In this document: in pieces, positions 6,001-11,151 of the stretch
Numbering within the stretch: the stretch's first letter is position 1
Layout of the letters: the number at the start of each line of letters is the position of its first letter
NCBI GenBank assembly: GCA_038108555.1
Contig: JAYNIA010000067.1
Span: 1-11,151, forward strand
Length of the DNA stretch: 11,151 bases
Reading direction: 5' to 3'
DNA from: Nitrospinota bacterium
GTDB taxonomy: Bacteria > Nitrospinota > Nitrospinia > Nitrospinales > VA-1
Made by a program: the position numbers

Positions 6001-9000
6001 TGTCCGATAAACTACTGAAATAAGTGACCATTATGCAAAATTCCGAATCCATTCAAATGATCAAGGAGCAGCTCAAAATTAAGACGGTAGAGTTGCGCAA
6101 AGCCACCGAGGAAAACGGCAAGGTTACCAAAAAAGTCCGAGATCTGATTGAATTCAACAAAGACGAAACCAAAAAGTTAAAAGAAGAAATTAAAAAGGCC
6201 CAGGAAGAAGCAGAAGAACAGAGAAATGAGGCCGCAGCCGCACGCTTGGCAAAACATGCGGGTGTTGAAGCTGGTAAAAAGGAAAAGGAAGAAGAGGAAG
6301 CCATGCTGACCAAAGAGCTTGAAGAGAAGTTAAACAAAAAAATGGCCGGCAAGCTCGAAGAACTAAAAACCCGCACCAAAACCCTGAGAGATAGAATCGA
6401 AGACGAAAAAAAATCCAACAAAAAGTTCCAGAGGGAACGTGATGTTTTGATGAAAGAATTAAAACGTCTTCGAGAAGACACAGGCACGGTCGACAACCTT
6501 AAGAAAAAGGTTGAACTGCTGAAAGTCGAATTAAATAAAGCTAAAAAATCCTCCAAAGCTTCCGGTGTAGTGACAGAAGATATTGTCAAAGAGAAAGATA
6601 CCCTGATCAAAAAATACGAAGACATGCTGTACGGCGGTCTGGATGCAGGTGAAGACGGCATGCTGCCTTCGGAGATCATTCAGGAGCTTAAGGAAGAAGT
6701 AGAAGATCTTGAAAAAGAGCGGCGGACCATGATTGTCGAACTCGAAATGTTGAGGGAAGACAATGCTGAAATGGATATGAAAATCACCCTGCTAGAAGAG
6801 GAAAAAGGCCGTGGGGGTAAGGGGGGGGATGAAGGTGGATTAAGGCCGGTAGAAAGTCGCGCTGCTCAAACTGCAGAATTCTCCGCCGGGCTGGAAAACT
6901 TCCTGATCACCTATTCCGATATGATCACCCTTCTCCTGGTTATCTTTGTACTGATGTATACCGTATCAAAGCTGGACGAAAACAGGTTTGCTGAGGCTTT
7001 GTCTTCCTTTCAAACCAAAAGAATGCGCATAGAAAGCGTTAATGTACGGTTGAGCAAAGATGAACTGAAAATGCTGCAACGCGTACGAGAACTGGTTAAA
7101 GACAATGTTGATGCAGAAAGTCTTGTTCGAAGTGACACAAGAACCATTTTGCATCGATTGCCCACATCCGACCTTTTTGCACCGGGTGAAGCATTCTTTA
7201 ATGAAGGTGCGCAAGACCTGATTATCAGCACTATCCAGGAAGACATGAAAGAAGGGGTCAAACAGCTTCTTGTGGATGGACACACAGACAATGTACCCAT
7301 CAAAAGTGCCAAATTTCCATCTAACTGGGAACTTTCTGCAGCCAGGGCTTCAAAGGTTGCTCGCTTTATAATTGAAAAAATGCGATTCCCACCGGAAAGA
7401 ATGGTGGTCACCGGATATGGGGAATTCCGACCCCTTTTGGAAAATACAAATGATGACAATCGCGCCGCAAACCGTCGCGTTGAAATTAAAATTCTGAAAG
7501 CCCTTGAAGTTGCGGACAAAGAGGCGAAAGAAGCAGGTAAAGAAAAAGGAGGACAAATGGGTGGAAATATGACGGATAAAAAGACATCCGAAGCACCCAC
7601 TTCGCCCCCGGCGGCAAATAAATAACAACATTTATTCTATTTGATTAAGCTCTATTTTTTTATAAAATGTAATTAAATTCATTTACCCATTTTTAAAAGG
7701 CAGGGCAAAAATGGATACCCATGAAGACACAAAAGTAGAAAATATAGAAACCACCGATTCGACCGAAAATGGCAAGGATAACCCCTTAAATCTCTCTGAG
7801 GAGCAGATTAAAAAGGCCCGGAAAAAACTAGCGATAGAAAACAAAAAGAATAGTTTGTCCGACGAAGAAACCCTTTTTTACAACCGGCAGGCCTTTTTAA
7901 GATTTAATAGATTCAAGATAGATCGCACCCTCGTCACTTTATCCGAAATCGACAGAACCATCTTCCTGATTGTGCCTCGATTGCTGCATGTTCATCAGGA
8001 AGGGTTGCCCGGCTATTTTGAAGGAAATCCCCCTTGCGGAATCCATAACTTCCAACTGGATATGGAAGCGCAATACGCGATGGAGAAAATGTTTCCAGAT
8101 GTGATTATCCGTAGAAACCCGGAACTAAAACCAGTCATCCACACAGCCCTTTTAATGGGTAGTGTGGGGTCCATCGCGCAAACCAAAAAGTCCGATTTAG
8201 ACTACACGCTTCTTGTAGACAAGAGGGATTTTACAGAAGAGAGCATGAAGCTTTTCCAGAAAAAGCTGAACCTCATTGAACAATGGACATGGGATAACTA
8301 CAACCTGGAAACCCACTTCTTCATAAACGATTATGAAGAGGTAAAAAACAATATCTTTGGTGAAAGTGATAGTGAAAGTACTGGGTCGGCACTTGCCAAA
8401 CTTCTCAAAGAAGAGATGTACCGAACCATGATTATTGTTACGGGAAAAGTTCCCTTTTGGTTGATCTCCCCTGTGGATGCCGATGATGACAGATATTATG
8501 AGCTGTACCAAAAATTATTAAATGGAAATACGCTTCTCAAAAAAGAAGAATTCATTGATATGGGTAACGTTGATGATATCTCACAAGGGGAATTCTTTGG
8601 GGGTTCCATTTGGGCATTGATTAAATCATTCAAATCCCCGTTCAAAACCCTTATGAAAATGGGTGTCCTCGAGGAATATATGTTTGGAGATACAAAATCC
8701 AACCTCCTGTGCCACCAAATTAAGGATAAATATTTTGGGGATACCCCTTATCTGGATATCGACCCCTACCTTGGTATGTTCGAACGGGTACAGCAGTTCT
8801 TTAAGGATGAAAAAGATGAGGATGCCCTGGATGCTCTGCGAACGGCTTTTTACTTGAAAGTGGGCACCCGTGTAGAACCAGAAGAACTGGAAAAAGGCAG
8901 CAAAAACTGGAAAAAGAATACTCTGGTTAAAATGCTCAACGACTGGGAATGGGATGCGGAAAAAGTTGAACGCCTCAACGATTATGGGAACTGGCAAATG

Positions 9001-11151
9001 ATGCATAAAGTTGACCTGGGTAACCGGATCAACAAAATCCTGATGGCATCTTATAAAAATATCTCCGAGAAAAATAAAACCCTGGATCCAAGCGAAAGTT
9101 TAATTACCGAAAAAGACACTCACCTTCTCGGTCGAAAACTATTCAGCTTTTACAGGACAGCACCTAACAAGGTAGATAACCTGGGAGCACTGGTAGATGG
9201 TAAAACTGCTGAGACTGAATTGACATTCCTACAGGAGAAAAAATCCTCGCGGGAAAAAGCAACCTGGTATCTCATTCGAGGAAAAACAAGGGCCTATCTG
9301 GAGCAAATTGATCCGGACAACATCATCAAAAAATCCAGCACCCTCCCATTTTTAATGGCTTTTACGGTTTTCAACCATCTTTATAATGATGAAACCCAGA
9401 TTATGGTAAGGGCCGAGGGCAACTCTATGAAAGATGGTGATGTCGAGAATTTGCTCGGTCAGTTGAGCCAATTTATAGCATCTGTAAACATTGCAGCCCT
9501 ATCCAACGAAGACCTGATGGCCGAAGCAAAGGTCAACCAGCTATTTATGCTAATAGACTTTGGCACCCCTCCCCCACCAGAAATTACGATGGGAAACATC
9601 AACGACTGCAAAAATAACGATGAATTGAACAAATTCATCTCCAGACGAATTGACCGGATAAAAAGCATCACAACAACTTATCTCACATCGTGGGGAGAGC
9701 TTTTTTGTAAAACCTATACAGGGTTAAACTGTATGGCTCGGTGTATTGGTGAGTTGACCCCCCAATTGGCACCTGAAAAGGTTGAAAAACCGGATTTTCT
9801 TAAGGTTTATATTCCGAGTGGCCGAAAAGAAATACTACAAATAGCTTGGTTGAATAACTATATTATCCGCTCCCTGCTGATCAAGTCACAAGCTCAAGCA
9901 GAGAAGGTCGCCAGCTAAAAAAATAAATTTAAGCGCAAATAAAGCCGTATGGCAGCAGCAACACAAGAAGCAGAGGCACCCGCAGGTGCAGAACAGGAAG
10001 AACGTCAGGAAACAGGAATCGACACCGGCACATTGCTGGGTGTACTTTCTGGCGTGTTTCTCATTGTTATCGCAATCATCAGGGGGGGAGATGCGGCCAT
10101 TTTTGTAAACCTTAACAGCGCATTGATAGTTGTTGGCGGTACCGTAGCCACAGGCTTTATTGCATTTCCCTCTAAAAGGATTACGGTAATGATCCCGGTC
10201 ATCCAGAATGCCTTTAAACCTGGAGTATACGAACCGGAAGACTATGTAGACGATATTATGAGACTGGCCTCCCGATACCGTTCCGGGGGAATGAAACAGC
10301 TCGAAAACGAAGAAAGCAAACTGGACAACCGGTTTCTAAAGAGTGGCGTTGCCATGATCGTGGACGGATACAATGCCAAAGAAATCCATGAGCTCATGGA
10401 AAGGGAGTTGAATGCCATGCTGGATAGGCATAACTCAGGGCAAAAAGTTTTAAGGTTCATGTCTGTACAGGCTCCGGTATTTGGAATGGCAGGAACTCTC
10501 ATTGGTCTCATTCAAATGTTGATGCACATTGATCACCCGTCCACCATTGGACCGGCCCTGGCAACAGCATTGATTACGACATTCTATGGGCTTTTATTAG
10601 CAAACTTGATTTTAACTCCATTAGCAGCCAAATTGGGTTCCCGAACAGATATGGAAGGAACCCTGTTTCGAGCGATCAGGGTAGGAATTATGGGCATCCA
10701 TGACCGGGTGAATCCGCAAAAAATTCAACGCACCATGAACGCACTACTTCCACCCTCACAACAGCGAGAATAATTTAAATGTCAAATGTAGATGAAATTA
10801 TTTCTTTAGTTCTTAAGGAGCCCAAACAAGATGGCGCAGATTTCAGCGGCTTCGACCTTAAAGGGGTGAGCCTGAATGGTGCCAGCTTTGTCTTTGCAAC
10901 ATTGTTGGATGTTGTAATGGAAGATGCGGAACTCCGCGAAATTGATTTCTCACAGGCTTCTTTAGACAAAAGCTCCTTTAAAAATGCAAAAATAAAAGGT
11001 GAGGCATTTTTTGACAATAAATTACTTTTTAATCAAAGCAACTATCATACCGCTAAATTTAGGGGCCATGAAATAGGAATGATCTTTCAGGACCCCATGA
11101 CCTCGCTTAATCCTTATCTAACCATTGAAGAACAGCTTGGCCTTGTATTGA

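What a model noticed while it worked through the whole genome (the two positions that open the first line are those of the whole stretch)
6033..11150. Class I adenylate cyclase embedded between MotB and MotA stator genes (order-specific operon)
A MotB-like gene (g02726) and a PomA/MotA-like gene (g02728) are separated by a class I (CyaA-type) adenylate cyclase (g02727) and followed by a pentapeptide-repeat gene (g02729); all four are co-directional with gaps of 6-86 bp. This MotB carries a conserved ~280-aa cytoplasmic coiled-coil extension in front of the plug/TM helix with its channel Asp, absent from the ordinary MotB g01459. The order motB-cyaA-motA is kept through Nitrospinales and is almost unknown elsewhere, which points to a stator-like ion channel tied to cAMP synthesis. 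The genome holds 22 proteins with a cNMP-binding domain, 15 of them single-domain, and no Crp-type HTH.
Evidence so far: pfam.tsv, swissprot.tsv: g02726 MotB_plug 288-328 + OmpA 382-481; g02727 Adenyl_cycl_N + Adenylate_cycl, 25% to E. coli CyaA over 655 aa; g02728 36% to PomA. neighbours.tsv: Adenylate_cycl next to MotA_ExbB in at least 54 of 101 genomes of the order and 55 of all compared genomes (5,645 bear both); MotB_plug next to Adenyl_cycl_N 41 and 41. tblastn on 23 fetched loci: all four genes in order in 15 of 19 Nitrospinales loci (families f1-f4); 1 locus is cut before motB; 3 keep cyaA + pentapeptide but lack motA or both mot genes; 4 loci of other orders have a 32-35% CyaA homologue with no mot genes. 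Alignment A3: the extension is conserved across four families with invariant blocks; TM motif wit [...]
(Added by a program. Inside this text positions count along the whole contig: contig position 1 is position 1 of the stretch shown here. "Call 12" and the like, gene names such as g00115 and contig names such as C1 are that model's own, and its searches are not shown. The text may have been shortened before it was handed on; [...] marks where a part breaks off. The agent that wrote the report below was given it as the finding of a first reader that could run no searches.)

Follow-up and report, generated by a model that had tools for sequence, protein, structure and literature searches.

The report
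Long-tailed stator flanking cAMP cyclase
Marine nitrite-oxidising Nitrospinales keep the two genes of a sodium-type flagellar stator, whose B subunit carries an unusual ~285-residue cytoplasmic tail, on either side of a gene for an enzyme predicted to make cAMP, an arrangement that likely lets the motor report its load to cAMP signalling.

Summary
Confirmed: motB-cyaA-motA-pentapeptide is intact in 40 of 75 Nitrospinales cyaA loci. In 11 the stator genes are gone; 24 are cut or rearranged. None of 18 outside loci has it. The stator keeps the Na+ site and the three indispensable FliG-contact charges of PomA. The cyclase keeps its active-site residues in 59 of 59 copies.

Corrections: the MotB tail is not specific to this operon. 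Homologous tails sit on a PilZ-linked MotB and a receiver-fused MotB. The cyclase's constant partner is the pentapeptide gene, whose end in this window is a chimeric join.

New support: cyaA, this stator and a cNMP gene inside the pilT-pilU-pilC operon are missing from the 8 good genomes, all with flhA absent or broken. In one lineage a different stator sits next to cyaA while the original decayed.

Against direct coupling: flagellated genus g17 lost the stator with no change in CyaA conservation. No fold or complex could be run.

Best reading: an accessory flagellar stator whose tail likely scaffolds the cyclase, linking load to cAMP and pili (0.45). The scan noted this operon before in another genome (e1-2318541). 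My literature searches found no description.

The parts
6033..7625 (+). MotB, 530 aa: ~285-aa cytoplasmic tail, one TM helix (290-308) with channel Asp296, plug, OmpA-like peptidoglycan-binding domain
   Evidence: Pfam; M1 and D296 invariant in 16 sequences; hydropathy peak 2.28 at residue 290
6033..6890 (+). MotB N-terminal tail: E/K-rich, heptad-periodic helical segments, no TM segment, under purifying selection
   Evidence: period 3.4-3.6 in windows 22-77 and 106-203, maximum hydropathy 0.35; dN/dS about 0.05 in the one pair where dS could be computed; 56 and 84 homologues, all 84 of the second search but one partial protein with MotB domains
7711..9918 (+). Class I adenylate cyclase homologue, 735 aa, lacking the last ~200 aa of E. 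coli CyaA
   Evidence: Pfam and NCBIfam; alignment ends at E. coli residue 643 of 848; S151, S161, D162, D164, E235, R238, W250, K312, K316, D351, K383 invariant in 59 of 59
9949..10773 (+). MotA/PomA-type A subunit, Na+-type, with rotor-contact charges
   Evidence: best PDB hit PomA, E 5e-46; T183/T210/T211 match PomA T158/T185/T186 and R111/E119/D139 match R88/E96/D114
10779..11000 (+). 5' part of the pentapeptide-repeat gene (283 aa in relatives), constant companion of cyaA
   Evidence: Pfam; follows cyaA in all 66 of 75 loci that hold the start of the gene; the other 9 end within or at the end of cyaA
11001..11151 (+). Chimeric contig end: oppD/dppD-like ABC ATPase sequence, not part of the operon
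   Evidence: OppD hit at residues 68-124; depth rises from ~11 to ~70, foreign contigs lie on 10981-11113, and one contig leaves at 10999 and continues in frame like the relatives' pentapeptide

Best explanation
This operon encodes an accessory Na+-type flagellar stator whose MotB carries a long cytoplasmic tail, predicted to be coiled-coil, that likely holds the co-encoded class I adenylate cyclase and its pentapeptide partner at the motor, so that stator engagement under load would tune cAMP. Shown from sequence: operon order, stator and cyclase residues, tail conservation, joint loss with the flagellum. Inferred: MotA5 turns around a fixed MotB2, so a MotB tail would leave through the centre of the MotA ring as a non-rotating docking rod. 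The same rod is reused with a PilZ neighbour and with a fused receiver domain in paralogues. cAMP would be read by single-domain cNMP proteins, one of them encoded between pilT/pilU and pilC, which would shift cells from swimming to pilus-based attachment. CyaA can work without this stator, which would therefore be a modulating input, not a subunit. The flagellar-stator identity alone I put at about 0.85.
For: Interleaved order kept in 40 of 75 loci across four families. PomA R88, E96 and D114, called indispensable for motility in PMC10374538, are kept as R111 (29 of 29), E119 (26 of 29) and D139 (29 of 29). Among 51 good genomes of the order, 8 lack cyaA; 7 of them lack FlhA and the eighth has a broken one. 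All 8 lack this MotA clade and the pil-linked cNMP gene, which 41 of the other 43 have. That gene sits in pilT-pilU-Zn-ribbon-cNMP-pilC in 8 of 8 loci fetched. In G074 and on contig G087:C119 a divergent stator set stands directly upstream of cyaA, and on G087:C119 a decayed copy of the usual motA lies behind it. Tail homologues occur beside PilZ and fused to a receiver domain. Precedents: load raises cAMP and one stator is needed to stop rotation in Pseudomonas (PMC6855561); the MotB N-terminus affects channel gating (PMC7564593); ZorA signals through a cytoplasmic tail (PMC11946911).
Against: No evidence of contact. Eleven loci (genera g17 and g2) keep cyaA-pentapeptide without the stator, and most g17 and g2 genomes keep FlhA (10 of 11 and 2 of 2). 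g17 CyaA shows no more change at conserved columns (2-5%) than stator-bearing clades (0-23%). The tail also serves a stator with no cyclase neighbour. G076 has the divergent stator away from cyaA. The joint losses come from three genera only and may reflect general streamlining; I did not test whether the pili genes are lost too. The genome also has a class III cyclase domain. MotA lacks the PomA K89 and R232 equivalents.
Confidence: 0.45

Rival explanations
1. Co-regulation only. The genes share a motility-regulon operon. The tail positions or gates the stator or binds a motor part, and CyaA is controlled by the pentapeptide protein, not by the stator.
For: cyaA-pentapeptide survives repeated stator loss without sequence relaxation in g17. 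The tail is shared with the PilZ-linked stator. Nitrospinales gene order is generally conservative around this locus.
Against: It does not explain why cyaA lies between motB and motA, nor why a different stator set stands next to cyaA in G074 and G087:C119.
Confidence: 0.3
2. The signal runs the other way. cAMP from CyaA acts through a cNMP receptor on the tail to switch this stator in or out, as a brake or clutch.
For: In the 51 good genomes this MotA clade was never missing its cyclase, while the cyclase occurs without it. Many stand-alone cNMP proteins and no Crp HTH. In Pseudomonas the effect of cAMP on stopping rotation depends on MotAB.
Against: No cNMP domain is encoded in the operon. 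The one cNMP gene I traced lies in the pilus operon.
Confidence: 0.15
3. A non-flagellar 5:2 motor that senses envelope strain or Na+ motive force and signals through its tail, in the manner of Zorya.
For: The operon lies outside the flagellar clusters. Long cytoplasmic tail. An orphan fliG exists.
Against: Plug, OmpA domain and rotor-contact charges are kept. It is lost with the flagellum. No ZorA match, and the tail is on the B subunit.
Confidence: 0.08

Closest known systems
Na+-driven flagellar stator PomAB / MotPS (PMC10374538, passages read; PMC12505986, section 7 and passages read)
   Same: Na+-site threonines, R88/E96/D114 equivalents, single-TM B subunit with Asp, plug and OmpA domain.
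   Different: A ~285-aa MotB cytoplasmic tail where PomB-type hits start at query residue ~285; Phe in place of the usual Trp before the TM Asp; no K89 or R232 equivalents; genes split by a cyclase; outside the flagellar clusters.
Class I adenylate cyclase CyaA of E. coli
   Same: Both Pfam domains; the S-D-x-D nucleotidyltransferase motif and the aligned conserved residues are kept.
   Different: 25% identity; lacks the last ~200 aa; below every NCBIfam equivalog cut-off (best 439 against 802); no Crp HTH found in the genome; paired with a pentapeptide gene.
Pseudomonas dual stators with FlhF-FimV-cAMP surface sensing (PMC6855561, abstract and two sections read)
   Same: Several stators, and a link from motor load to cAMP and surface behaviour.
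   Different: There the link is indirect, through FlhF and FimV. Here cyclase and stator share an operon and MotB carries a tail.
Zorya ZorAB (PMC11946911, abstract read)
   Same: A 5:2 ion motor with a long cytoplasmic coiled-coil tail that passes a signal to soluble proteins.
   Different: The tail is on the A subunit (pentameric) in Zorya and on the B subunit here; no ZorA match; no nuclease or DNA-binding neighbours.

Membership tests
Flagellar stator (FIT clade) | A subunit similar to MotA/PomA over its full length, with the large torque interface | tested here: met
   aligns to PomA 2-238, E 5e-46; TolQ only E 5e-5; tested by sequence, not by fold
Flagellar stator (FIT clade) | B subunit with TM Asp, plug and OmpA-like domain | tested here: met
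Flagellar stator (FIT clade) | Rotor-contact charges R88, E96, D114 (PomA numbering) | tested here: met
   R111 29 of 29, E119 26 of 29, D139 29 of 29; K89 and R232 not kept
Flagellar stator (FIT clade) | Occurs with flagellar genes | tested here: inconclusive
   absent where FlhA is lost or broken, but not in a flagellar cluster and missing from flagellated g17 and g2
Flagellar stator (FIT clade) | Engages FliG and generates torque | not testable with these tools
   needs motility rescue or tomography
Na+-type stator | PomA T158, T185, T186 | tested here: met
   T183 and T211 in 29 of 29, T210 in 27 of 29 (definition)
Class I adenylate cyclase | Adenyl_cycl_N plus Adenylate_cycl above Pfam cut-offs | tested here: met
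   162 and 257 bits
Class I adenylate cyclase | E. coli S103, S113, D114, D116, E185, T189, W200, K260, K264, D300, K332 (their catalytic roles are recalled; the paper was not held) | tested here: met
   all map to identical residues; invariant in 59 of 59 except T239, which is S in 3
Class I adenylate cyclase | NCBIfam equivalog cut-off | tested here: not met
   best 439 bits against 802: a divergent, shorter subfamily
Class I adenylate cyclase | Makes cAMP from ATP | not testable with these tools
   needs complementation or assay
Zorya | ZorA with A-subunit tail, plus ZorC/D/E neighbours | tested here: not met
   no PADLOC hit for MotA, CyaA or the pentapeptide protein; MotB hits ZorB only over residues 286-500

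The most novel reading that the evidence does not exclude
Nitrospinales have evolved a family of tailed stators in which a non-rotating MotB coiled coil threads through the MotA ring and works as a signalling rod. It drives a class I adenylate cyclase directly in this operon, meets a c-di-GMP PilZ protein in a second and carries a phospho-receiver in a third. That would be a direct, genetically encoded flagellar mechanosensor-to-cAMP link and a new way to regulate class I cyclases.
Probability: 0.3. Interest if true: 0.87.

Novelty: new variant of a known kind. Interest (0 to 1): 0.63.

Why it matters
How flagellar load becomes a second-messenger signal is an open question, and the Pseudomonas route read here is indirect. 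This operon names candidate parts (tail, cyclase, pentapeptide protein, pilus-linked cNMP receptor) that can be tested in E. coli or Vibrio. It also offers a class I cyclase without the E. coli C-terminal region and apparently without Crp; no solved relative was found by sequence. And it bears on surface attachment in a major group of marine nitrite oxidisers.

Tried and rejected
ESM Atlas gave no usable hit for the tail. No RNA holder was listed. The promoter scan was at chance level, 10 sites against 9.8 expected, so co-transcription rests on spacing only. The test for CyaA relaxation after stator loss was negative for g17; g2 is uniformly divergent (16-22% in all regions) and so uninformative. 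dS was saturated in most pairs. FliG was rejected as a marker of flagella because of the orphan copy. A long MotB-like hit in another order, G041:C287, is a protein with an N-terminal hydrophobic segment and an OmpA domain whose coil scores E 0.1 against the tail profile. Ten other-order genomes gave no other match reaching into the tail. The tails of the divergent G074 MotBs are not shown homologous to this tail (E 0.07 and 6). Zorya membership was rejected. Literature searches found no description in the titles and abstract starts listed (with 0 papers, 44, 45, 82, 90, 96); PMC12505986 has no 'Nitrospin' or 'adenylate' in its main text. Supplements were not opened and subscription papers are not held, so a mention there is possible.

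Full report
Observation. Record titles of related loci place the lineage in Nitrospinales. Of 75 Nitrospinales cyaA loci, 40 show tailed motB, cyaA, motA and pentapeptide in order. Eleven show cyaA-pentapeptide with both flanks and no mot gene, and 24 are cut by contig ends or rearranged. Sixteen cyaA loci from 11 genomes of other Nitrospinota orders and two from outside have no mot or pentapeptide hit, though five have under 1 kb on one side. Some of those outside cyclases neighbour cNMP, PilZ or metallo-beta-lactamase-fold genes, which fits a signalling role. The window's pentapeptide ORF turns into oppD-like sequence near 11000. Relatives have a 283-aa protein, depth rises there about sixfold, and one contig continues in frame like the relatives. 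The tail end of the window is a misassembly.

The stator. MotA's closest solved relative is Vibrio PomA. The three threonines that PMC10374538 ties to Na+ selectivity (passages read) are kept as T183, T210 and T211. The three charges it calls indispensable for motility, R88, E96 and D114, are kept as R111 (29 of 29), E119 (26 of 29) and D139 (29 of 29). K89 and R232 are not. MotB has one TM helix with invariant D296, a plug and an OmpA domain, the features PMC12505986 lists for flagellar stators (section read). So this is a flagellar-type Na+ stator by sequence; torque is untested.

The tail. Residues 1 to ~285 are E/K-rich, have no TM segment and show heptad periodicity in several windows. 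They are under purifying selection in the one pair where dS could be computed. Homologues are few: 56 cluster representatives and 84 proteins, all but one partial protein of the latter with MotB domains, named as Nitrospina relatives where named. The tail is not unique to this operon. The genome holds four motAB sets. A second set, motA-tailed motB-PilZ, is widespread in relatives, and its tail aligns with this one from the first residue (E 1e-40 against the profile); its MotA lacks the E96 equivalent. A third set has a receiver domain fused in front of a tail homologue, intact in G013, and its MotA groups with this one. The fourth is ordinary, keeps R88, K89 and E96, follows a receiver-HD gene and lies 14-30 kb from flhA in the four genomes compared. 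It is the likely main stator. Tailed MotBs therefore recur next to three different signalling inputs.

The cyclase. E. coli residues recalled as catalytic (S103, S113, D114, D116, E185, T189, W200, K260, K264, D300, K332) all map to identical residues. They are invariant in 59 of 59 full-length copies except T239. The alignment stops at E. coli residue 643 of 848. No solved relative was found. The pentapeptide gene follows cyaA in all 66 loci that hold its start, so it, not the stator, is the constant partner.

What goes with what. Among 51 genomes of the order at least 90% complete, 8 lack cyaA. Seven of these lack FlhA and G072 has a broken one; 42 of the 43 with cyaA have FlhA. The eight also lack this MotA clade, and six were shown to lack any MotA match. 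The genome has 22 cNMP ORFs and no Crp HTH match; 14 of the 15 short ones printed keep the Arg of the recalled phosphate-binding motif. One lies between pilT/pilU and pilC. It is found in 41 of the 43 cyaA genomes and none of the 8 others, and keeps that position in 8 of 8 loci. These losses come from three genera and may be part of general streamlining. In G074, at the same chromosomal site, two divergent long MotBs and a divergent MotA stand upstream of cyaA. Contig G087:C119 has the same MotA upstream and a decayed copy of the usual motA downstream. That looks like one replacement that kept a stator beside the cyclase, but G076 carries the same divergent set elsewhere.

Against coupling. 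Genera g17 and g2 mostly keep FlhA but lost this stator, and g17 CyaA is no less conserved. G004, G008 and G076 show recent decay of the mot genes with cyaA retained. G037 (g17) still has the PilZ-linked tailed MotB and G017 (g2) a shortened one, so a tail remains available, but that is only a possibility. A class III cyclase domain is also present.

Mechanism. I favour an accessory stator whose fixed MotB dimer sends a coiled-coil rod into the cytoplasm and modulates the cyclase, with cAMP read by cNMP proteins at the pilus motor (0.45). Precedents are indirect. Load raises cAMP, and MotAB is needed to stop rotation, in Pseudomonas (two sections read). The MotB N-terminus affects gating (abstract). 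ZorA passes a signal down a cytoplasmic tail (abstract). Co-regulation without contact (0.30), cAMP acting on the stator (0.15) and a non-flagellar sensor (0.08) remain.

Novelty. The parts are known families. The tailed MotB family and its interleaving with a class I cyclase were not found in my searches (listings only), and supplements were not seen. The scan noted the same operon in another genome; that note is not independent support. The paralogous tails, the co-loss pattern, the replacement and the pilus-linked receptor come from my own calls; the short note I saw did not mention them.

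Noticed in passing
window 3073-3768 (-), stop at 3553-3555: OmpR-type response regulator broken by an in-frame TAG; contigs of two runs show no difference there, so it looks real in this population. It is intact (about 230 aa) in relatives.
   Followed up: partly
window 11001-11151: Chimeric contig end: oppD-like sequence joined to the pentapeptide gene.
   Followed up: yes
G000:C50:15408-18193 (L088) and G000:C80:362-2918 (L089): The PilZ-linked and receiver-fused stator sets are broken by stops or frameshifts in this genome but intact in relatives, while the cyaA-linked set is whole. Real decay or assembly error is unresolved.
   Followed up: partly
G000:C20:23234-24241 (L087); G023:C80 (L094); G076:C12 (L231): A second, orphan fliG outside the flagellar cluster, kept even in G023 where flagellin, FliF and MotA were not found. 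In G076 it faces the divergent stator genes.
   Followed up: partly
G000:C3:112855-114216 and C13:7020-8523: Tandem arrays of three and four single-domain cNMP proteins with full phosphate-binding motifs; the first follows a sigma-54 response regulator.
   Followed up: no
G000:C3:125084-125506 (L190:19085-19507): Single-domain cNMP gene fixed inside pilT-pilU-Zn-ribbon-cNMP-pilC across the order.
   Followed up: yes
L122:475-4730 (G074): Two tandem long MotBs with one MotA upstream of cyaA; could form a heterodimeric B pair.
   Followed up: partly
L073:4693-5862 (G017): In G017 the second tailed MotB is shortened to 389 aa and the PilZ gene is gone from its side; only one weak flagellin-family match remains.
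   Followed up: no
L178, L181, L186, L188, L175: Class I cyclases of other Nitrospinota orders occur in up to three copies per genome and sit beside metallo-beta-lactamase-fold, cNMP or PilZ genes.
   Followed up: partly
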